Below are positions 9,498 to 17,866 of a DNA stretch of 30,437 bases, one piece after another; the stretch's first letter is position 1, and every line of letters begins with the position of its first letter. A program made the translations under genes and the position numbers. The DNA is from Flavobacteriales bacterium (GTDB lineage Bacteria; Bacteroidota; Bacteroidia; UBA10329). The notes under the pieces were generated by a model. That model searched no databases. It saw only the letters and a program-made list of their open reading frames with translations, and was not told the origin of the DNA. The stretch spans positions 1 to 30,437 of the forward strand of contig DMRV01000121.1 in NCBI GenBank assembly GCA_003456455.1, read 5' to 3'.

Positions 9498-10261
9498 AAT
9501 TGAACTTTAAAGAATTTGGCGAGGGGAAACCCTTGGTTATCCTTCATGGGCTTTTCGGGTCGTTAGATAATTGGTTTTCGCTTTCGAAGGCCTTTGCCGA
9601 TAAGCATCACGTTTATCTGGTTGATCAGCGAAACCATGGTCAATCACCTCATTGCGATTCTCATACTTATGAGGAAATGGCTGATGATTTATTCGAGTTT
9701 TTTCAGGAACACAAACTGGAAGATGCTATGCTTATTGGGCATTCTATGGGTGGGAAAACGGCCATGCTTTTTGCCTCTGAGCATCCAGAGTTACTGTCTA
9801 AATTGATTGTGGTTGATATGGGTATAAAACAATACCCTGTTCATCACGATTTAATAATCAGATCTATGCAGGCGTTGGATTTAGACGCCATGAAAAGCAG
9901 AAAAGAAGCCGAAGAATCTCTGAGTCACTTGTTGGATGAAGATGAGAGCACCATTCAGTTTCTTCTTAAAAACATCTACAGACAAAAACAGGAGGATGGT
10001 TCATCAAAGTATGCTTGGCGATTTAACTTAGACGTAATTGCTGATGATATTGAGGAAATGGGACTGCTAATTTCTGAAGGCGCTGAAATTGAAACGCTGT
10101 TTCTCCACGGAACACAATCAAAATATGTTTTGGAAGATGACAAAGCTGAAATTTTGGAGCTGTTTCCAAACTCGATTTTCAAGTCGCTACAAACCGGCCA
10201 CTGGGTTCATGCGCAAGATCCAAAAGGATTTGTTGAAGAGGTGAAAGCCTTTATTGATTGA
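9494..10261 (+). CDS. Alpha/beta-fold hydrolase (YbfF/ABHD11-like esterase)
   Basis: 'LHGLFGSLDNW', 'DQRNHGQS', nucleophile elbow 'GHSMGGK', catalytic His 'GHWVHA'. GTG start overlaps the pdxJ stop (GTGA). Confidence 0.92.
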   Translation: MKLNFKEFGEGKPLVILHGLFGSLDNWFSLSKAFADKHHVYLVDQRNHGQSPHCDSHTYEEMADDLFEFFQEHKLEDAMLIGHSMGGKTAMLFASEHPELLSKLIVVDMGIKQYPVHHDLIIRSMQALDLDAMKSRKEAEESLSHLLDEDESTIQFLLKNIYRQKQEDGSSKYAWRFNLDVIADDIEEMGLLISEGAEIETLFLHGTQSKYVLEDDKAEILELFPNSIFKSLQTGHWVHAQDPKGFVEEVKAFID

Positions 10262-10264
10262 AAC

Positions 10265-10297
10265 AAAAAAGCCGCTGATTTCTCAATCAGCGGCTTT
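10265..10297. terminator. Bidirectional intrinsic terminator between convergent esterase and endonuclease genes
   Basis: Perfect 13-bp stem AAAGCCGCTGATT (10268-10280) / loop TCTC / AATCAGCGGCTTT (10285-10297). The A-run at 10265-10270 gives a U-tract on the minus strand; the plus-strand tail is shorter. Confidence 0.9.
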
Positions 10298-10321
10298 CCA
10301 AAACTCAACTTTTTGCCTTTC

Positions 10322-12541
10322 CTATTGAAGAACAACTTTCAGCGTAGTTCTCCCTTTTTCACCACTCAAAACCATGTGGTAAACTCCAGCATCAAGATTT
10401 GAGAAATCAAAGTTTTGTCTAGAAAGGCCAGCGTTAAAGTTGTTAGACTGAACTGAAACTTGACGACCCGAAATATCCATTAATTCAATTGTCAATTCTT
10501 GCTTTTCAATCAAGTTCAGATTAAGACTAACCTCACCGTTTGAAGGGTTTGGAGAAACTGAAAAATCTCCAGCCAATTGCTCTTCAATTCCTTCTGGCTC
10601 TGTTGTAGAACAAGGAACCGTAGGATTTGATATGTATGAAAGGTCATCAAAGTTGATATAGCAAACCCAATGGGTACTATCAACAAATGGATTTCTATTG
10701 CCTTGCTCACTTTCAATAAAATCGTTTCGAGCAATTTCCCAAGCATCTGGCGGATCTTGTAGGTGCCATTGCTTTAAAACATCCTGATCCTGACCATACT
10801 GAACGATAAAATCTATTGGATTAGGAAGTTCCCAACTCCCACTTGTTCCATTCCACTTTGTGGCCATGTAAAATATAGCTCTAGCCGCATCACCTTTATG
10901 CTGATCACGCGGTTCGTAAACTCGCTGACCATCGGCATTGTCTCCGTACTGCGCATCTAAAAATGAACTGGCTGGCGTAACAACTTCGCCTAGCGGACGG
11001 TTACTTCTTACAGCATTTGCATTGTCTTGGTGTGTTGGAAAAAGGTTGTGCATATCCGAGTACTCGTCTCCATCTTGATCTGGAAAAGCTGGCATCCAAC
11101 TATGTGGCCAAGAATGCTCTCTACTTAATACATCATAGAAAAATGCACCTAAATACATATGCTGGTATCCTGAGTAAACACCTGTAACCACTTTTTGCCC
11201 GTCTGTTGTATCTCGCGAAGCAAATTTGTTAATCATAATTGGCGCGTAATTGCTGTAGAATATTTGGTCGTACCCTTGGCTAATTCGCGTCTGCAAATCA
11301 GAAATAAAGCTGGTTTGATTAGGGTCAATTCCATCGTAATAGTTACCCATCATGGTTTCCGGTGTAGTAACAGAACCATCAAGTGGAGCGCTGGTATAAT
11401 AATTTTCGTACCCGGCTGGGCCATTGAAGGAGTAGGCAGCGAAATAATAGGTGGTATTAGCCACATTATAAGTTGGTTTAAACGAACCGGCTGGGCCAAC
11501 ATGAACAACCTGCGTAAATGCATCGATATAGTCACCTTTAACATAGGTTGAACCGTCCATGGGCTGATTAAGGAATTGATTCTCGATTCCTCTAATTACA
11601 ATGTAGTTTTCAGGAACCACGGTTGCATCATCAAAACTTACCTCATAACCATATGTGGTTACGTCTGTAATCTGGAGGTTAGCTGGGCCTTCTGATGGCT
11701 CCGTAGCATAATCTCCCCCAATCCCGTATAGGTTTATAACAAACGTTGTTTCATCTCCATTTGCATCATCATTCTCAATTGTAAGCGTTGCAAAACGAGA
11801 ACCCATCGCTCCAGCAGTAAACGTCAAATCAAACTGTTCAACAGCAGTTGCACCAACTGTTGTTGGGGTTGTTCCGAGCGAAAAATCGGCTGCATTTATA
11901 CCGCTTAAACTGATGTTGCTAATGGTTAAATCCGTTCCACCCAAAAGGTTTACGTTTTCGATACTGATAACGGTAGATGTGTTATTACCAACAACAAAAG
12001 TTCCGTTGTTTACAATTGGCGTAACACCACTGCTTACTCCAATTTCTTGAGCGTTTGTAGGAATTTGAGAAATTAAAGTAATCTCATCGAGCCCAACATT
12101 TCTACCGCTTTGCTTTTCAGTAAAATACCATCTGATGTAACGGGTAGTAGCTAAAGGGATATCGGTAAACTCAGTCCAAGCCGAGGCCGCGTCAAGATCT
12201 GCTTCTTCAAACAATCTAAGCGTTGTCCAGTCTGTTCCGTTTGCACTTTCTTGAACTGTGAAAACATCATTACTAGCAGAGCTTTGACCAATAAAATCGT
12301 ACGTAACTCCACCACATACATCGCTAAAATGAACTACAACATATTCATCATCTCCGTCTAGTTTGCAGGCAGCTCCTACAGAACCATTGGTGTATCGTGT
12401 GTTACCAGGATTGTTAGAAAGCTCCTCTGTCCAACCAACAGGTTGCGGATCATCAAAATTCCAAGATGCTGGTAAACTCGTTTGACCAAAAGTGGTTGTG
12501 GCCAAAATGGCCGAAGCCAAAAGTGTTGTTATTTTTTTCAT
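10322..12541 (-). CDS. T9SS-secreted endonuclease I (EndA/Vvn-like His-Me finger) with N-terminal beta-sandwich, Ig-like and FN3-like domains, about 739 aa
   Basis: Signal peptide TTFG|Q from ATG 12541. Nuclease motifs 'SREHSWPHSW', 'SDMHNLFPT...NAVRSNRPLG', 'YEPRDQHKGDAARAIFYM', 'RNDFIESEQGNRNPFVD'. Type-A CTD 'VSPNPSNG...MDISGRQV...LDAGVY...KVVLQ'. Confidence 0.88.
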   Translation of the reverse strand: MKKITTLLASAILATTTFGQTSLPASWNFDDPQPVGWTEELSNNPGNTRYTNGSVGAACKLDGDDEYVVVHFSDVCGGVTYDFIGQSSASNDVFTVQESANGTDWTTLRLFEEADLDAASAWTEFTDIPLATTRYIRWYFTEKQSGRNVGLDEITLISQIPTNAQEIGVSSGVTPIVNNGTFVVGNNTSTVISIENVNLLGGTDLTISNISLSGINAADFSLGTTPTTVGATAVEQFDLTFTAGAMGSRFATLTIENDDANGDETTFVINLYGIGGDYATEPSEGPANLQITDVTTYGYEVSFDDATVVPENYIVIRGIENQFLNQPMDGSTYVKGDYIDAFTQVVHVGPAGSFKPTYNVANTTYYFAAYSFNGPAGYENYYTSAPLDGSVTTPETMMGNYYDGIDPNQTSFISDLQTRISQGYDQIFYSNYAPIMINKFASRDTTDGQKVVTGVYSGYQHMYLGAFFYDVLSREHSWPHSWMPAFPDQDGDEYSDMHNLFPTHQDNANAVRSNRPLGEVVTPASSFLDAQYGDNADGQRVYEPRDQHKGDAARAIFYMATKWNGTSGSWELPNPIDFIVQYGQDQDVLKQWHLQDPPDAWEIARNDFIESEQGNRNPFVDSTHWVCYINFDDLSYISNPTVPCSTTEPEGIEEQLAGDFSVSPNPSNGEVSLNLNLIEKQELTIELMDISGRQVSVQSNNFNAGLSRQNFDFSNLDAGVYHMVLSGEKGRTTLKVVLQ

Positions 12542-12552
12542 TGAGTGTGTTT

Positions 12553-15360
12553 TCAAAATTTTACGCCAACAGTAGCTGTCCATCTTCGGCCTTGTCCCAT
12601 AAAAACCTTTGCGCCTGTAGCGTCAAACGTTTGAGAACTGGTGGCGTTGTTCTGAGCATCTGAGATATAAACATGGTCTGTTACGTTAAGGACGGATACT
12701 CGTAGACTGACGTCCATTTTTTTAAGCTTAATTGTCCAGCCTGCATGGATGTCAAACAGATAGTAGGCGGGAATTTTCCACGATTCCCGACCTCTGTTTT
12801 CTCCTTGAAGATCGAGCGGGTTAAAATTCGCATAGTAGTTATCGAAATAGGTGATTTGCGCTTTGAGATAAACGTCCTTTAGTGTAAGCCACTTTTTAAT
12901 ATAAAGGTCCTTGATTGGTTTAATCTTGATGCTTCCTGCTACCTGAAACTGCGCTGCATCTCCAACATGCACACCATCCGCTTCAACATCCACGCTATCA
13001 ATCGGAACATCACTTCCTTCTTGATAGTAATACGCTAACGAATTTCCTTTCCACCTCCAATCTCCGTAAGAAACAAGTCCTTCAATATCGAAGTACCAAG
13101 GTGTTTTATACGCTCCATCCAACTCAATTCCACGATGGGTAGAACCAATGTTAGGAATAGAAATTGTGGTTGGTGTTCCTCCAATGCTAACGCTTGTGGT
13201 AATAGGTCTGTTTTCCCAAACCGTGTTGTATAAATTCAGATTTGCCGCCCAGCGAGGATAACTAATTGAATAACCCAATTCCACACCCCAAGAAACTTCA
13301 CTTTTAACCCCCTGAACGAAATTGAAAGATGTGCCAGCGTATACATCTGAAATCGTTGGCGGACGTAAGAACATCCCACCGTTCACAAACACATTCATAT
13401 GGTCGTTAATATTAAAGTTCAAGCCAGCTTTAGCCGTTGCTCCCCAATAGTGAACCCAATCTGTTGTGGCCGTCTTTGCTTCTGTGCTAGCAGCCGTGTA
13501 TTGGGTCCCATTATATGTAATTGTATCATTGGCGCCCAACGATTGACGCATTGTCGTATCAGAAAGCACCAAATCGCGCTTACGGTATTGGTCTTTTCTG
13601 ATGTAAGAATTGTGCCCACCAGAAACGCTTACAAAACCCGAAAACTTGTCCTTCTTGTATTCAACCTGGCCGAAAACACCCCCCGTGTACACGGATGTAT
13701 TTGCCCGATAGCCAGCCACATCACCAATGCGTTTGACATTGTCACGGGCGAGAGTGGACGAATTGAAGAGGTTCTCTGGTTCGCTTGTCGGAAAAATCAC
13801 CGCATAATTCCCCCCAAGCAGGTCGTATGGCGTGCTATACCTCTCAACCCAGTACGAGCGAAAGTCAATACCTACCGACATTTCCCATGTATCATTGAAC
13901 CGATGGTTGATTGTAGATATGAGGCCGTACCAATAGTGATTATTCATGTTAGCCTGTATATAATTTTCAGATTTATACTGGCTAGTATCATTGACAGCAA
14001 TAGTATCGTAAGCCTGAACGAACGGTGTACCCGAGATGTTCTGCTCATAAAGACTATCAACATCTAGTTGGCCGAAAGGATCGTATTCTGTATTTCCTCG
14101 AAGACGCGTTCCTCCGCCATTCCCAAATGAACCATAAATAACGTTGGACACCGCCCATTTATCCTTAGCCCAAAAGTGCTTCAGATTAAAAATGGGTTTG
14201 TGGTAGAAGTTTTCGGCAACACTTTGAGCTTCACTCTGTGCATTTGGGTTATTCCTGTCACGAATAACGTATCCCCACTGACCATTATATCTTCTCCCAT
14301 AATTACCCTGCAAACCGGCAGCCATATTCTCGGTAACAGATTCGTCACTTAAATTAACCCCCACCTTTTCAGCGTAAGCCCTATCGAACATGTAAATTTC
14401 TTGCTTATAACTGCGCTGCTGACGTTTTTGAGGCGCGCCCATTCCTGTAATACTGATGGTGTGATTCTTGATTTGCTTTTGAAGTTTTAGGAAGTAAAAA
14501 AAACGATTGGCTCCAGTGCTTTCTACCCAGCCTTCTTGATGGTCATATGCAAACGCGGCAGTTACGCCCCACCCATTTTTCAATCGGCCAGAATTATAGC
14601 TAATGTTCGTCCTAATAAGATTGTTATTACCAACAGTAACCGCAACTTCCGTTTGTTGTTTGGAACTAATTCCAGCCGTCAAAATATTCATGCTACCACC
14701 AACCGCAGGAATAGCCAATTTGCTTGCTCCCAAACCTCGTTGCACCTGAATCCGCTGTGTTACACCATCCAACCCAAACCAGTTACTCCAATACACCTGA
14801 CCGTTTTCCATATCATTCATCGGAACCCCATCAATTTGAACAGAAATATTACGTTGTGAAAATCCTCGTATGGTTACGCGCGCGTCTCCTGCACCTCCTC
14901 CTTGCTGCGTAGCATACACACCAGGCGTTGAGTTCAACAACATGGGGATGTCCTGAGAAGAGAGTTCCTCCTTGATTTTTGCAGGCTCTATATTGGAAAA
15001 GGCCACCGGGGTTTCACGATCGATTGCCATGTCTGCAACAACCCTTACCTCATTAAGTGTCTTTGTTTGCAGAGCAAAGTTTACCTCTAACTGACCTCCT
15101 CTTGTTTTAATTTCCCGCGTTGTTGCCTCATACCCTATGTATGAAATTTGCATGGTGTAAGAGCCGTTTTCAACCTCAATTGAGTACCTACCATCAAAGT
15201 CGGTTACAACCCCTCTACCTTCTGCTACCAATACGTTTGCAGAAATGAGCGTTTCACCAGAACTGGCATCTTTCACAACACCATAAACACGTGTTTTTTG
15301 TGCCTGCGATACTGTTACGGTAATCAATACCGTTAAAAAAGTGAAGAGAAAGCGATACAT
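12553..15360 (-). CDS. TonB-dependent receptor with N-terminal carboxypeptidase-regulatory-like domain, about 935 aa
   Basis: Signal peptide SQA|Q; 'VYGVVKDASSGETLISANV...GVVTDFDGRYSI' N-domain; TonB-box-like 'LNEVRVVA'; plug 'LLNSTPGVYA...IRGFSQRNISVQIDGVPMND'; terminal 'NVTDHVY...GQGRRWTATVGVKF'. Confidence 0.93.
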   Translation of the reverse strand: MYRFLFTFLTVLITVTVSQAQKTRVYGVVKDASSGETLISANVLVAEGRGVVTDFDGRYSIEVENGSYTMQISYIGYEATTREIKTRGGQLEVNFALQTKTLNEVRVVADMAIDRETPVAFSNIEPAKIKEELSSQDIPMLLNSTPGVYATQQGGGAGDARVTIRGFSQRNISVQIDGVPMNDMENGQVYWSNWFGLDGVTQRIQVQRGLGASKLAIPAVGGSMNILTAGISSKQQTEVAVTVGNNNLIRTNISYNSGRLKNGWGVTAAFAYDHQEGWVESTGANRFFYFLKLQKQIKNHTISITGMGAPQKRQQRSYKQEIYMFDRAYAEKVGVNLSDESVTENMAAGLQGNYGRRYNGQWGYVIRDRNNPNAQSEAQSVAENFYHKPIFNLKHFWAKDKWAVSNVIYGSFGNGGGTRLRGNTEYDPFGQLDVDSLYEQNISGTPFVQAYDTIAVNDTSQYKSENYIQANMNNHYWYGLISTINHRFNDTWEMSVGIDFRSYWVERYSTPYDLLGGNYAVIFPTSEPENLFNSSTLARDNVKRIGDVAGYRANTSVYTGGVFGQVEYKKDKFSGFVSVSGGHNSYIRKDQYRKRDLVLSDTTMRQSLGANDTITYNGTQYTAASTEAKTATTDWVHYWGATAKAGLNFNINDHMNVFVNGGMFLRPPTISDVYAGTSFNFVQGVKSEVSWGVELGYSISYPRWAANLNLYNTVWENRPITTSVSIGGTPTTISIPNIGSTHRGIELDGAYKTPWYFDIEGLVSYGDWRWKGNSLAYYYQEGSDVPIDSVDVEADGVHVGDAAQFQVAGSIKIKPIKDLYIKKWLTLKDVYLKAQITYFDNYYANFNPLDLQGENRGRESWKIPAYYLFDIHAGWTIKLKKMDVSLRVSVLNVTDHVYISDAQNNATSSQTFDATGAKVFMGQGRRWTATVGVKF

Positions 15361-15372
15361 CAAGCTTTAGGC

Positions 15373-16278
15373 TTATTGGCCTAGCATTACTTTTCGAGAA
15401 AGGATTGCTCCGTTGCTCATAGTAACCCGCACAACATAAACTCCTGTTCTGAGATGTTCTAAATTGTAACGCTGTGTGGTTGCTCCGTAAGCAAAATTCA
15501 CACGGTCTTTCTCTTGTCCGATAATATTAAATACCTGAATAGACTCCATTTCCACAGATGTAGAAATCATTAACTGTTTATCTGCAGCAGGATTTGGAAA
15601 CATATTCATCTTGGCTGTTTCTGCATCATTTACTCCAACAGAAGCACAGTCACAATTGTGCCATCCAAGCTCTGTAAATGTATCTTCCGGTAGGCTGTCC
15701 CACTCTGCCTCTACAACAAATGCCACAGGGTTTATTGTAACACCACTTAATACTCCTGGCTTTCTGATTAACGTTTTATCTGTTGTCCACCAGGTTCCAT
15801 TTGCATCTGCCCAAGCAGTACCAGGATCTTCTCCAATTCTACCAACAAGATCAACGATAGTTGTGCCGTCTCCTTTAATAAGTGGCACCGCATCGTCTCC
15901 ATTAAAATAGAACGGAGAGTTAGCCTGCACGTATACTGGATTTACAAACGTATCAGCCACGGCTTGAATTGCTAGGTCTACCTGCTCTTCAAAACCAGTT
16001 CCGTTAGGGTCACGTTTATCAATTGCAATTACATAAGTTCCGAATGCTGGGATAGTTCCTGCTAAATCAAGCAACATTGGTGTTCCAGAACCATCACGAA
16101 ACCTTCCAACCTTATAACCGAACAGGTCTACGGCTGCATCCGTTGGGTTGTAAATTTCCAAAGCACGGTTGTTTCCCGAACCAACCACATATTCTGAGAT
16201 AAATAAATCATCACAGTCTTGTGCCTGAATGCTGAAAGATGTGATTACTGATAGTGTAAGAAGTAAAAGTCTTTTCAT
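15373..16278 (-). CDS. Lamin-tail-domain (LTD) protein with T9SS type-A CTD and no recognisable catalytic domain, about 301 aa
   Basis: Signal peptide SIQA|Q from ATG 16278; LTD signature 'LFISEYVVGSGNNRALEIYNPT...VDL', 'FNGDDAV.L'; CTD 'MFPNPA...VFNIIGQ...LRTGVYVVRV...RKVMLGQ'. Confidence 0.85.
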   Translation of the reverse strand: MKRLLLLTLSVITSFSIQAQDCDDLFISEYVVGSGNNRALEIYNPTDAAVDLFGYKVGRFRDGSGTPMLLDLAGTIPAFGTYVIAIDKRDPNGTGFEEQVDLAIQAVADTFVNPVYVQANSPFYFNGDDAVPLIKGDGTTIVDLVGRIGEDPGTAWADANGTWWTTDKTLIRKPGVLSGVTINPVAFVVEAEWDSLPEDTFTELGWHNCDCASVGVNDAETAKMNMFPNPAADKQLMISTSVEMESIQVFNIIGQEKDRVNFAYGATTQRYNLEHLRTGVYVVRVTMSNGAILSRKVMLGQ

Positions 16279-16300
16279 GTTGTAAGTGCTGATTAAGATA

Positions 16301-16330
16301 CAAAGGTAGATTATCTCTTTAACCATCAAA
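16301..16330 (-). promoter_or_regulatory. Bacteroidota promoter (-33 TTTG / -7 TAnnTTTG) for the LTD-TBDR-endonuclease operon
   Basis: Minus strand: TTTG at 16330-16327, an 18-bp spacer, then TACCTTTG at 16308-16301, 22 bp upstream of ATG 16278. Confidence 0.7.
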
Positions 16331-16507
16331 GGTCTTGTTGCTGCCAAATAAGAGTTTTATCTTTTGTTTTAGAATAGATGATAATGTGGGGTTCTCCACA
16401 TCTGTATGGTGAATACTTTAAACGCTACACACTTGACCGTCTTAATACATTAGATAATATCGCTTTGGCATTCTCGTTTTAACCAGTCTAACCAAATTAC
16501 AGACGTG

Positions 16508-17152
16508 ATGAAAAAGCTAATGATAATGATGCTTCTTGGATTTGCCATGACCACCACCAAGGCGCAAGACAAGGGAGGGTCCAAACCCGTCAAATTCAGT
16601 AACATCACTGAAGCTACAGTTGGGTTTCATATTGGGAAGACCACCAGGCTTTCTGAAGTTGGGGGTAACGAAACTGAATTTAAGGTTGCTGGTTATGAAA
16701 TTCCATCTCCTCGTGTTTCTAGTTCCTTTGGGGCGTTTATCGGACAGCGATTTTTTATCGGCCCAGGGTTCAGTTATATGTATCAATCGAAGGACGACAG
16801 CAACCCAACGCAACACCACATTGGTGTTTTCGGACACGCCCGTTTACAATTGTTCAAGGGACTATTACGTCCGTATTTAGAATTAAAAGGAGGCTATAAC
16901 CACATTTTACCTGAAGGAAATGCTGGTGTTTTCTCACAGGAAACATACACTTGGGACGGGGCTTTTGCGGAACCAGCTCTAGGTCTTGGTATAAAATTGG
17001 GAGGACATGCCCAACTAAACGTTTCGCTGGGCTATCAGTTTCTTAATGTTTGGAATCGGGCAGAAGGTATTACAAGTGCTGATGCCTTCGGACCAGAATT
17101 GAAAGATGCTTACCACCGATTGCTACTGATCGTTGGATTCAGCTTTTTCTAA
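16508..17152 (+). CDS. Small outer-membrane beta-barrel protein (OMP_b-brl/porin-like), function unknown
   Basis: Signal peptide TTKA|Q; amphipathic strands such as 'RPYLELKGGY', 'FAEPALGLGIKL', 'LNVSLGYQF'; C-terminal aromatic beta-signal 'IVGFSFF'. Confidence 0.75.
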   Translation: MKKLMIMMLLGFAMTTTKAQDKGGSKPVKFSNITEATVGFHIGKTTRLSEVGGNETEFKVAGYEIPSPRVSSSFGAFIGQRFFIGPGFSYMYQSKDDSNPTQHHIGVFGHARLQLFKGLLRPYLELKGGYNHILPEGNAGVFSQETYTWDGAFAEPALGLGIKLGGHAQLNVSLGYQFLNVWNRAEGITSADAFGPELKDAYHRLLLIVGFSFF

Positions 17153-17158
17153 GCTAGG

Positions 17159-17866
17159 TCAATCAACATTCTTCTGCTTAAAGAGCTTCCGACTGTCAAG
17201 GTCATAGCACAATAAGTGACCATATTCCTTATCGAGATAAGTGTGTGAGCATCCATTATCTAAACAAATAGATTTGGAGTTTGACTTAACTTCTGAGGTG
17301 ATTTTTGAAAGCTTTGTTGGAGTATGTCCAAACAACACCTTCCGTCCGTTTAGCTTTTTGTCAATGGAAAAGTTGCGCATCCAGGCCATGGCATGCGAAT
17401 CGGTAAAAGGTTTTTTGATATTCATATTAAATCCTGCATGTACCAAATAGTAACCGTCAAGCTCATAGAAATAAGGCAACTTACGCATGAATTTGAAAAA
17501 TCGACCTCTTACATTTCCCTTTTTGTTGAGGAGATTCAACGAGTTTCTCGGTTCTAACAAAATCTTAAGTTCATCTGGGTTTTTTGCGGCAATATGTAAT
17601 AGATTCTCTTCGTGATTTCCCATTAAAGGAAAAACACTGTAGCCATCATCAAGGAGGGCAAGCACACGGTCTAGTACCTGTTTGCTTCGTGGCCCACGAT
17701 TGATGAAATCTCCCAATAAAAAAAGTTGATCATTTGCCGTAAGACCGACCTTTTTAAGCAGTTTTCCGAAAGTTTTATTGCAGCCATGTATGTCGGTTAT
17801 TACCAACCTACGACCACCGTTTTCAGGTGGTTCCACTTTAACACTTATTGCGTCTTTAGAAGCCAA
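17159..17866 (-). CDS. Calcineurin-like metallophosphoesterase (PphA/ApaH/phage-lambda-type PPP phosphatase)
   Basis: 'DIHG', 'GDFINRGP', 'GNHE', 'VHAG', 'FGHT', 'LDNG' motifs; no signal peptide. The TTG start overlaps the upstream stop by 11 bp. Confidence 0.9.
   Translation of the reverse strand: MASKDAISVKVEPPENGGRRLVITDIHGCNKTFGKLLKKVGLTANDQLFLLGDFINRGPRSKQVLDRVLALLDDGYSVFPLMGNHEENLLHIAAKNPDELKILLEPRNSLNLLNKKGNVRGRFFKFMRKLPYFYELDGYYLVHAGFNMNIKKPFTDSHAMAWMRNFSIDKKLNGRKVLFGHTPTKLSKITSEVKSNSKSICLDNGCSHTYLDKEYGHLLCYDLDSRKLFKQKNVD

What the first reader, a model, noticed from the sequence alone, without database searches (positions are those of the whole stretch)
10265..16330. Three-gene operon LTD cargo + SusD-less TonB-dependent receptor + T9SS endonuclease I: candidate extracellular DNA/RNA harvesting system
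Seen: one promoter (16301-16330); three co-oriented genes separated by only 12 and 11 bp; a strong terminator 24 bp after the last stop. The nuclease keeps its His-Me-finger motifs (REH, DMHNL, RNPFVD), and both flanking proteins have Sec signals and type-A T9SS CTDs. No SusD-like lipoprotein or regulator is present. Established: SusC/SusD loci pair secreted depolymerases with TonB-dependent uptake, and LTDs with this 'ISEYVEG.SNN..IEIYNPT' signature occur at the N-terminus of ExeM/NucH-type extracellular nucleases. Inference: this is a utilisation locus for nucleic acid, where the nuclease cuts environmental DNA, the LTD protein binds or presents it, and the TBDR imports oligonucleotides or nucleotides as P/N/C source. 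I know of no characterised system with this layout but cannot search to confirm novelty.
Basis: partly seen in the sequence, partly recalled or inferred. Interest (0 to 1): 0.82.

Follow-up and report, generated by a model that had tools for sequence, protein, structure and literature searches.

The report
Secreted-nuclease DNA-scavenging uptake operon
Three tightly packed genes (a secreted lamin-tail-domain protein, a TonB-powered outer-membrane importer and a secreted DNA/RNA-cutting enzyme) form a cassette found in about a quarter of sampled Bacteroidia species. It most likely lets these bacteria feed on environmental nucleic acid, as an unstudied cousin of the DNA-utilisation loci described in gut Bacteroides in 2025.

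Summary

**How conserved it is.**
- In an evenly drawn sample of about 300 Bacteroidia species genomes, 81 carry the LTD-CTD gene directly upstream of an orthologous TonB-dependent receptor.
- Of the 76 with enough downstream sequence, 69 have a nuclease gene next on the same strand.
- The nuclease is endonuclease I in 57, a DUF5689 + PLD (NucT-like) enzyme in 10, and DUF5689 + endonuclease I in 2. Two unrelated nuclease folds in one slot point to nucleic acid as the substrate.
- In Fluviicola and six other loci, a Tat-signal 5'-nucleotidase follows the cassette.

**Closest known systems.** These are ddbABCDEF of B. thetaiotaomicron and the Riemerella outer-membrane transformation pair. This receptor forms its own clade. 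The window has no DUF5689 partner, and export is by T9SS rather than as lipoproteins. The two system types never co-occurred in the sample (0 observed, 17 expected).

**Verdict.** This is a new variant of a known kind. Function is inferred, not shown. The role of the LTD protein and the imported species are the weakest steps.

The scan has flagged this cassette at least 13 times on other DNA, with the same reading.

The parts
16301..16330 (-). Bacteroidota-type promoter candidate: TTTG (16330-16327), 18 nt, TAccTTTG (16308-16301); the ATG follows 22 nt after the box
   Evidence: Read directly. Consensus match only. The sigma-70 scan does not cover this promoter type.
15373..16278 (-). Gene 1: 301-aa secreted LTD protein with no catalytic domain. 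Signal peptide aa 1-20, LTD / ExeM-N-terminal-like module aa 19-222, T9SS type A CTD aa 226-298
   Evidence: PF00932 50.9 bits; NF033680 N-terminal part E 1e-25; PF18962 and TIGR04183 above cut-off.
15838..16224 (-). Lamin tail domain (Pfam envelope aa 19-147)
15388..15603 (-). T9SS type A C-terminal sorting domain of gene 1
12553..15360 (-). Gene 2: 935-aa TonB-dependent receptor, not SusC-type. N-terminal CarbopepD_reg-like domain aa 25-106, plug aa 115-222, barrel to the terminal Phe
   Evidence: Orthologues form one clade linked to LTD genes.
10322..12541 (-). Gene 3: 739-aa secreted multidomain nuclease
12014..12484 (-). N-terminal jelly-roll beta-sandwich of the nuclease (aa 20-176), cleaved-adhesin / CBM / MAM-like. 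It sits where relatives carry DUF5689
   Evidence: AlphaFold2 pLDDT 88.8. Foldseek best hits are Kgp K1-K3 adhesin domains, TM 0.6-0.65. Not DUF5689 by hhalign. L084 has DUF5689 in this position.
10676..11128 (-). Endonuclease I (His-Me finger) catalytic domain, aa 472-622
   Evidence: It is the only Endonuclease_1 match in the 70%-complete genome.
10331..10555 (-). T9SS type A C-terminal sorting domain of gene 3
10262..10299 (-). Intrinsic terminator: 15-bp hairpin with GAGA loop and a U run. It lies between the operon and the convergent hydrolase gene
   Evidence: -22.7 kcal/mol, z -5.3.

Best explanation
This is a T9SS-dependent extracellular nucleic-acid harvesting operon. The proposed steps, with their status:
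1. Both outer genes are exported by Sec and then by the type IX secretion system, and stay on or near the cell surface (inferred from the signal peptides and type A CTDs).
2. The endonuclease I enzyme cuts environmental DNA or RNA into 5'-phosphorylated oligonucleotides. Family membership and catalytic motifs are shown; activity is inferred. Its N-terminal beta-sandwich, Ig-like and Fn3-like modules hold it at the surface or on the substrate.
3. The LTD protein is the invariant partner of the receptor. It acts as a surface capture or hand-over subunit, in the role that the DUF5689 protein DdbD is proposed to play for DdbC. This is the weakest inferred step.
4. The TonB-dependent receptor imports oligonucleotides or nucleotides into the periplasm (inferred).
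5. 5'-nucleotidases release phosphate and nucleosides there. Such genes are fused to the cassette in some lineages and lie elsewhere in this genome.

The benefit is phosphorus, plus nucleosides as a source of nitrogen, carbon or salvage.
For: - Tight operon anatomy with a promoter match and a strong terminator.
- All domains score above curated cut-offs, and catalytic residues are conserved.
- The cassette is conserved from 84% down to about 37% receptor identity across Flavobacteriales, Bacteroidales, Chitinophagales, Saprospiraceae and Sphingobacteriales labels.
- In an even class sample, 81 of 81 orthologous receptors have the LTD-CTD gene upstream, and 69 of 76 have a nuclease downstream. 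Median gaps are 42 and 37 nt.
- The third slot undergoes non-orthologous replacement: endonuclease I, or a two-HKD PLD enzyme that scores as nuclease NucT (E 3e-24).
- DUF5689 is fused to the slot-3 nuclease in about 40% of the best 80 loci. This domain is modelled as DNA-binding in DdbD and is part of the protein essential for transformation in Riemerella (PMC12478041, PMC8459023).
- DdbC-like loci of another family carry the same DUF5689+PLD+CTD nuclease.
- The LTD-type and DdbD-type systems do not co-occur: 0 observed against 17 expected among 300 genomes.
- A Tat-signal split 5'-nucleotidase follows the nuclease gene in Fluviicola sp. and six other loci.
- One relative has a phosphate-selective porin and a phytase-like gene upstream.
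- In F. johnsoniae, LTD+endonuclease I nucleases are induced by phosphate depletion and found in the exoproteome (PMC8115612).
- Contigs from RNA libraries match parts of all three genes at 99-100% identity, and two bridge the LTD/TBDR junction.
Against: - There is no experiment on any member of this receptor clade.
- Nothing here shows that the LTD domain binds DNA. It is strongly acidic (pI about 4.1). So are the nuclease and DUF5689 domains, so charge does not discriminate.
- Seven of 76 sampled loci lack a nuclease next to the LTD-TBDR pair. The pair can therefore stand alone.
- No regulator or Pho box was identified.
- In this window the 5'-nucleotidase is not linked to the cassette.
- The RNA-library contigs are short, could derive from contaminating DNA, and none bridges the TBDR/nuclease junction.
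- The genome is a 70%-complete MAG.
Confidence: 0.68

Rival explanations
1. Outer-membrane DNA uptake for natural transformation. The receptor would pass long DNA into the periplasm for ComEC, as proposed for RA0C_RS04915/RS04920 in Riemerella anatipestifer. The nuclease would trim or convert the DNA.
For: A TBDR-like protein plus a DUF5689 protein are essential for transformation in Riemerella (PMC8459023). DUF5689 recurs in the slot-3 proteins of this cassette. ComEC is present in this genome.
Against: The receptor is in a different clade from the DUF5689-partnered receptors. The window and its whole order lack DUF5689. A non-specific endonuclease is the usual third gene, and 5'-nucleotidases are appended in some lineages, which points to degradation. 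ComEC is nearly universal, so it does not discriminate.
Confidence: 0.12
2. The receptor imports something other than nucleic-acid fragments, such as another phosphoester, a metal or a cofactor. The two secreted proteins would merely be co-regulated surface enzymes.
For: The receptor's only NCBIfam hits are weak matches to B12 and siderophore receptors. Sources label homologues as iron or cobalamin receptors. Seven sampled loci lack a nuclease. The nearest paralogous receptors have unrelated neighbours such as pgi.
Against: Those annotations are generic plug-domain matches far below cut-off. LTD linkage is 81 of 81, and nuclease linkage is 91% with fold swapping, across very distant lineages. 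That is hard to explain by co-regulation alone.
Confidence: 0.1
3. Extracellular DNA remodelling without import. The nuclease and LTD protein would manage matrix DNA in biofilms or aggregates, or degrade foreign DNA. The receptor would play a structural or anchoring role.
For: [quoted passage not shown]
Against: This does not explain a conserved energy-dependent importer, nor the periplasmic nucleotidase extension. In B. thetaiotaomicron the same locus is required for DNA depletion and nucleobase production (PMC12478041).
Confidence: 0.07

Closest known systems
ddbABCDEF DNA-utilisation locus of Bacteroides thetaiotaomicron (BT3558-3563; Sharan et al., PNAS 2025, PMC12478041; Bechon et al. 2022, PMC8851478)
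   Same: Both are operons that join secreted or surface nucleases to a dedicated TonB-dependent transporter and a non-catalytic surface protein. DUF5689 (DdbD) recurs in the slot-3 proteins of relatives of this cassette. DdbC-like loci of T9SS-bearing Bacteroidia carry the same DUF5689+PLD+CTD nuclease.
   Different: The receptor forms a separate clade. It is 22-31% identical to receptors that sit beside stand-alone DUF5689 genes. There is no DdbD in the window or its order. An LTD protein sits upstream instead. Surface proteins are T9SS cargo rather than SPII lipoproteins. There are three genes rather than six. The nuclease is endonuclease I, whereas the Bacteroides paper annotates an EEP-type enzyme. 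The two system types did not co-occur in 300 sampled genomes. I could not obtain the BT3560 sequence, so the comparison is by proxy.
Riemerella anatipestifer outer-membrane natural-transformation pair RA0C_RS04915 / RA0C_RS04920 (Huang et al. 2021, PMC8459023)
   Same: A Bacteroidota TBDR-like barrel with a CarboxypepD_reg N-domain works with a surface protein on extracellular DNA, and a nuclease gene lies beside them.
   Different: The partner there is DUF5689+DUF5017 and lies downstream. The shown function is transformation, not nutrition. This window has neither domain by sequence. Its nuclease N-domain is only a generic jelly-roll.
SusC/SusD polysaccharide utilisation loci
   Same: The logic is the same: a surface binder, a surface depolymerase, a TonB-dependent importer, and periplasmic finishing enzymes.
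   Different: The receptor does not hit the SusC/RagA model and no SusD is present. The polymer is nucleic acid. The surface proteins are T9SS cargo.
Vibrio and Shewanella extracellular nuclease pairs (Xds or ExeM with an LTD; Dns or EndA of the endonuclease I family) used for phosphorus from eDNA. This comparison is from my own knowledge, not tested here
   Same: An LTD module and an endonuclease I enzyme act together outside the cell. The LTD here matches the ExeM N-terminus (NF033680, E 1e-25).
   Different: In those systems the LTD is fused to an EEP nuclease, and no dedicated TonB-dependent receptor is encoded with them. Here the LTD stands alone and is always paired with a receptor.
Flavobacterium johnsoniae EndA1/EndA2 (Fjoh_4721, Fjoh_4723; Lidbury et al. 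2021, PMC8115612)
   Same: They are secreted Fn3+LTD+endonuclease I proteins of a Bacteroidota species, induced by phosphate depletion.
   Different: They are listed there as orphan genes. The gene between them is a 21.7-kDa protein, not a receptor. The LTD is fused to the nuclease.

Membership tests
Ddb-type DNA-utilisation locus (DdbC/DdbD core) | Transporter belongs to the DdbC clade of TonB-dependent transporters | tested here: not met
   Tested by proxy. Receptors beside stand-alone DUF5689 genes form a separate, fully supported clade (100/100). The LTD-linked receptors form their own clade (89/93). Identity is 22-31%. The BT3560 sequence itself was not obtainable.
Ddb-type DNA-utilisation locus (DdbC/DdbD core) | Adjacent DUF5689 (DdbD) surface partner | tested here: not met
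   No PF18942 match in the genome (70% complete) or in 16 genomes of its order. The nuclease N-domain is not DUF5689 (hhalign probability 26%).
Ddb-type DNA-utilisation locus (DdbC/DdbD core) | Secreted nuclease(s) encoded in the same operon as the transporter | tested here: met
   Endonuclease_1 with signal peptide and CTD, 11 nt after the receptor gene.
Ddb-type DNA-utilisation locus (DdbC/DdbD core) | Locus required for depletion of exogenous DNA | not testable with these tools
   Needs genetics in a cultured carrier.
SusC/SusD-type PUL | SusC/RagA-family transporter followed by a SusD-family lipoprotein | tested here: not met
   No SusC/RagA NCBIfam hit for the receptor. The neighbouring genes are LTD and nuclease, and the flanks are unrelated.
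Endonuclease I (Vvn/EndA, PF04231) | Family model above cut-off and His-Me finger catalytic residues | tested here: met
   104 bits against a cut-off of 25. Aligns to Vvn 1OUP/1OUO. REH His, the NAN Asn and NRNPF are invariant in 25 homologues. The model match starts at position 75 of 235, so the N-terminal third of the canonical domain is not matched.
T9SS type A cargo | C-terminal type A sorting domain plus N-terminal Sec signal | tested here: met
   TIGR04183 scores 36.8 and 40.9 bits against a cut-off of 23. PF18962 scores 39.9 and 46.2 against 27. Secretion itself was not tested.
ExeM/NucH extracellular nuclease | LTD N-terminus fused to an EEP-type nuclease domain | tested here: not met
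   Gene 1 matches only positions 5-186 of the 884-position ExeM model (89.8 bits against a cut-off of 1300). It has no catalytic domain.
Riemerella-type outer-membrane transformation machinery | TBDR-like barrel paired with a DUF5689+DUF5017 protein and required for transformation | tested here: not met
   No DUF5689. The DUF5017 likeness of the N-domain is only an Atlas lead below 0.9. The transformation phenotype is not testable here.

The most novel reading that the evidence does not exclude
The stand-alone LTD protein is a T9SS-delivered, surface-anchored subunit of the TonB-dependent transporter. It would act as a capture or lid partner that replaces the DUF5689 lipoprotein DdbD. This would define a class of transporter complexes whose extracellular subunit arrives by type IX secretion rather than as a lipoprotein. 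It would import oligonucleotides, or possibly longer DNA, in roughly a quarter of Bacteroidia species.
Probability: 0.3. Interest if true: 0.75.

Novelty: new variant of a known kind. Interest (0 to 1): 0.6.

Why it matters
Extracellular DNA and RNA are large pools of organic phosphorus and nitrogen in lakes, estuaries, oceans, soils and sludge, and Bacteroidota are major degraders of polymers there.

A compact cassette present in about 27% of sampled Bacteroidia species would give a concrete genetic marker and a testable mechanism for who consumes dissolved nucleic acid, and how. The cassette appears to be the alternative to the Ddb system of gut Bacteroides.

It would also extend the PUL principle to a T9SS-dependent form, and would give the bacterial lamin tail domain a defined job.

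Tried and rejected
- **Direct comparison with BT3560 (DdbC) and RA0C_RS04915.** No tool returned those named sequences. I used receptors beside stand-alone DUF5689 genes in anonymous genomes as proxies.
- **Window nuclease N-domain as a diverged DUF5689.** Rejected. hhalign gave probability 26%, and the model is a jelly-roll like the gingipain adhesin domains and CBMs.
- **Flanking small beta-barrel protein (16505-17152) and Metallophos gene (17159-17866) as parts of the unit.** Rejected. They are conserved beside the cassette only in three close relatives, and the Metallophos protein has no signal peptide.
- **Net charge of the LTD as a test of DNA binding.** Uninformative. All domains, including the nuclease, are acidic.
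- **Neighbours of the nearest paralogous receptors as a clue to substrate.** They are heterogeneous (pgi, GH3, GDSL esterase).
- **F. johnsoniae Fjoh_4721-4723 as a member of this cassette.** Rejected. The middle gene encodes a 21.7-kDa protein.
- **The RNA leader found in relatives as a reporter of the regulatory ligand.** Its other copies precede SprB/PKD-type T9SS adhesin genes, so it does not point to nucleic acid or phosphate. It is also absent from the window.
- **Rfam.** No family matched the window or nine related loci.
- **Literature searches for this exact layout.** Nothing found.
- **The sigma-70 promoter and terminator scan.** It does not fit Bacteroidota promoters and it missed the terminator, which I confirmed by folding.
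Full report
**Observation.**
The region holds three minus-strand genes:
- a 301-aa protein at 15373-16278;
- a 935-aa protein at 12553-15360;
- a 739-aa protein at 10322-12541.

The gaps are 12 and 11 nt. Pfam and NCBIfam assign the domains as follows:
- Gene 1 has LTD plus a type A T9SS sorting domain.
- Gene 2 has CarbopepD_reg_2, Plug and the TonB-dependent barrel.
- Gene 3 has an Ig-like choice-of-anchor-D region, Endonuclease_1 and a type A sorting domain.

All of these score above curated cut-offs. The receptor hits no SusC/RagA model. Each protein begins with a type I signal peptide followed by Gln.

Upstream of gene 1, TTTG (16330-16327) and TAccTTTG (16308-16301) are 18 nt apart. This fits the Bacteroidota -33/-7 promoter pattern as I know it. 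It is a consensus match and nothing more.

About 23 nt after the last stop codon, a 15-bp hairpin with a U run folds at -22.7 kcal/mol. Its z-score is -5.3 and no shuffle folds as well.

The flanks are pdxJ and an alpha/beta hydrolase on one side. On the other are a small beta-barrel protein, a cytoplasmic Metallophos protein and a DUF5686 protein. No SusD-like gene or regulator is present.

The genome is a MAG of 2.88 Mb in 487 contigs, 70% complete.

**Is the arrangement more than chance?**
The receptor has thousands of relatives. Contigs encoding relatives at 61%, 52% and 44% identity all show the same order: LTD-CTD, receptor, nuclease-CTD. In one 44% relative the third gene is DUF5689 + PLDc_2 + CTD instead.

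A scan of one genome per species found at least 592 species with a relative. In the best 80 loci:
- 69 of 75 upstream genes carry LTD and 67 carry the sorting domain.
- Of 69 downstream genes, 33 carry Endonuclease_1, 29 DUF5689, 26 PLDc_2 and 58 the sorting domain.

Those 80 loci are the top scorers, so I also took an evenly drawn sample of about 300 Bacteroidia species genomes at least 90% complete. I fetched all 100 best receptor loci and annotated them with profiles built from the first set.
- 81 genomes have the LTD-CTD gene directly upstream of the receptor, with a median gap of 42 nt.
- Of the 76 with enough sequence downstream, 69 have a nuclease gene on the same strand. It is endonuclease I in 57, DUF5689+PLD in 10, and DUF5689+endonuclease I in 2.
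- Seven have no nuclease.
- Receptors scoring below about E 1e-105 to the query have neither neighbour. The family therefore has a sharp edge.
- All 16 genomes of the window's own small order have the receptor at 64-83% identity.

**What the parts are.**

*The nuclease.*
- The catalytic domain aligns to the Vibrio vulnificus nuclease Vvn.
- The REH histidine, the Asn of NAN, RSN, and NRNPF are invariant or nearly so in 25 homologues. I equate that Asn with the Mg ligand by alignment to Vvn, using an offset I recalled rather than verified.
- The Pfam match begins at model position 75, so the first third of the canonical domain is not matched.
- The first 157 mature residues model confidently (pLDDT 88.8) as a jelly-roll beta-sandwich. 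The best structural matches are the cleaved-adhesin domains of Lys-gingipain, followed by carbohydrate-binding modules and MAM.
- This N-domain is not a detectable DUF5689. Yet relatives with the same overall architecture carry DUF5689 in exactly this position (L084; L143 and L179).
- Other slot-3 architectures are endonuclease I + DUF5689 + Ig, endonuclease I + LTD, and DUF5689 + Fn3 + two-HKD PLD. The PLD part scores as nuclease NucT (E 3e-24), not as a lipid enzyme.

Two unrelated nuclease folds alternate in one conserved slot. Together with the recurrent DUF5689, this is the strongest computational argument that the cassette handles nucleic acid.

*The LTD protein.* Gene 1 has no catalytic domain. 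Its whole mature part resembles the N-terminal module of ExeM-type nucleases.

*Net charge.* All domains, catalytic ones included, are acidic, so net charge says nothing about DNA binding.

**Further functional context.**
- In a complete Fluviicola sp. genome, a split 5'-nucleotidase follows the cassette on the same strand. The two pieces are 5_nucleotid_C and Metallophos, the latter with a twin-arginine signal. Six other loci show the same extension.
- One 61% relative has a phosphate-selective porin gene, a phytase-like gene and a 1599-aa LTD protein upstream.
- This genome has two 5_nucleotid_C genes elsewhere and a ComEC gene. The cassette's nuclease is its only Endonuclease_1 match.
- Short contigs from three estuary or marine RNA libraries match parts of all three genes at 99-100% identity. 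Two span the LTD/receptor junction (15301-15451 and 15307-15494). None falls in the flanks. This is weak evidence: the contigs are short, DNA carry-over cannot be excluded, and the receptor/nuclease junction is not bridged.

**Comparison with what is known.**

Three papers bear on this.
- Sharan et al. (PMC12478041) showed that ddbABCDEF of B. thetaiotaomicron is required for depletion of exogenous DNA. It encodes three nucleases, the transporter DdbC and the DUF5689 protein DdbD, which they model as a DNA-binding lid. They relate DdbCD to RA0C_RS04915/04920.
- Huang et al. (PMC8459023) found RA0C_RS04915 and RA0C_RS04920 essential for natural transformation in Riemerella.
- Bechon et al. (PMC8851478) tied the same Bacteroides operon to eDNA degradation in biofilms.

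I could not fetch those sequences, so I used a proxy.
- In the class sample, 115 genomes have DUF5689. Sixty-three of them have strong, stand-alone DdbD-like genes.
- The receptors beside those genes are only 22-31% identical to the window's receptor.
- In a maximum-likelihood tree, those receptors form their own fully supported clade. The LTD-linked receptors form another (89/93). Both lie in a wider, unresolved group with orphan paralogues.
- The paralogues' neighbours are uninformative.

So this is not a DdbC orthologue. Two links remain.
- DdbC-like loci of a T9SS-bearing family carry, after the DdbD-like gene, the same DUF5689+PLD+CTD nuclease found in 10 LTD-type cassettes.
- The 81 LTD-type genomes and the 63 DdbD-type genomes do not overlap at all, against 17 expected. 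This count is not corrected for phylogeny. Within one family, though, different genera carry one system or the other.

The count of 63, and locus L102, include genome G176, which is flagged as unpublished.

The pattern suggests two alternative solutions to one task. In the LTD-type, the LTD protein fills the partner role that DdbD fills in the other.

Also relevant: F. johnsoniae LTD+endonuclease I nucleases are induced by phosphate depletion (PMC8115612). They are not part of such a cassette.

I found no paper describing the LTD / receptor / nuclease layout.

**Mechanism and its status.**
- Shown by sequence: the operon anatomy, domain identities, conserved catalytic residues, export signals, and the conserved linkage.
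- Inferred:
  - surface retention by T9SS;
  - nuclease activity;
  - capture or hand-over by the LTD protein;
  - import of oligonucleotides or nucleotides by the receptor;
  - periplasmic dephosphorylation;
  - a nutritional purpose.
- Not excluded: uptake for transformation, an unrelated ligand, and matrix-DNA remodelling. I rate each of these lower, for the reasons given under rivals.

**Earlier notes of this scan.**
I consulted them after reaching this reading. They show the same cassette flagged at least 13 times on other genomes, with follow-up agents also naming ddbABCDEF as the closest system. One mentions an uncatalogued RNA leader, one a four-gene form with a small lipoprotein, and one the PLD form. 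I saw all three independently here.

**Verdict.**
I classify it as a new variant of a known kind: a T9SS-dependent, LTD-partnered DNA-utilisation cassette with its own receptor clade.

Noticed in passing
Not in the window. Examples: L041:4869-4932, L045:4872-4936, L049:4928-4992, L184:8398-8462 (minus strand): A structured RNA motif of about 50 nt lies in the 5' leader just upstream of the LTD gene in many related cassettes.
- It has a 5-bp outer stem and an invariant internal loop (GAACAYCCUACA on one side, AUUCCGAAACC on the other).
- The inner hairpin varies, with compensatory changes in 8 of 12 pairs.
- It has no Rfam match.
- A covariance model finds 18 copies in 85 loci and 20 in 100 class-sample loci; those whose position I checked lie on the cassette strand, just upstream of the LTD gene or of another LTD/T9SS gene.
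- It occurs in tandem before a 690-aa LTD+CTD gene.
- In five genomes of one genus, the other copies precede SprB/PKD/Ig_7 surface-protein genes.

It may be an uncatalogued cis-regulatory RNA of T9SS cargo genes.
   Followed up: partly
L245:11032-12538 (Fluviicola sp. GCA_965284695.1); also L084, L093, L168, L179, L207, L209: A split 5'-nucleotidase follows the nuclease gene on the same strand. A 195-aa 5_nucleotid_C piece comes first, then a 305-aa Metallophos piece with a twin-arginine signal. This extends the cassette to five genes in Crocinitomicaceae-like lineages.
   Followed up: partly
Class-sample loci such as L146-L148, L154, L164, L166; L169 and L173: In about 19 loci, 430-1650 nt separate the receptor and nuclease genes. 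In L169 and L173 a roughly 144-aa lipoprotein-like ORF directly follows the receptor, and no nuclease gene is present. A small lipoprotein may be an optional fourth component.
   Followed up: no
window:16505-17152 (+): A divergently transcribed 215-aa protein has a signal peptide and a C-terminal aromatic residue typical of small outer-membrane beta-barrels, and no Pfam match. It is conserved beside the cassette only in three close relatives.
   Followed up: partly
L009:1-7832: In a 61% relative, the cassette is preceded by a phytase-like/SdiA-regulated gene, a phosphate-selective porin (Porin_O_P) gene and a 1599-aa LTD protein. This hints at a phosphorus-scavenging neighbourhood.
   Followed up: no
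Class sample of about 300 genomes: Genomes with the LTD-type cassette (81) and genomes with a stand-alone DdbD-like DUF5689 gene (63) do not overlap, against 17 expected. Nine of the 21 genomes that have only a near-paralogous orphan receptor carry the DdbD-type system.
   Followed up: partly
window:23876-30379 (+): A 2167-aa ORF. A first-reader note describes it as a multidomain T9SS surface protein that includes an LTD. I did not analyse it.
   Followed up: no
window:10262-10299: The terminator hairpin sits between the operon and the convergent alpha/beta hydrolase gene that ends at 10261. It could serve both transcripts.
   Followed up: no
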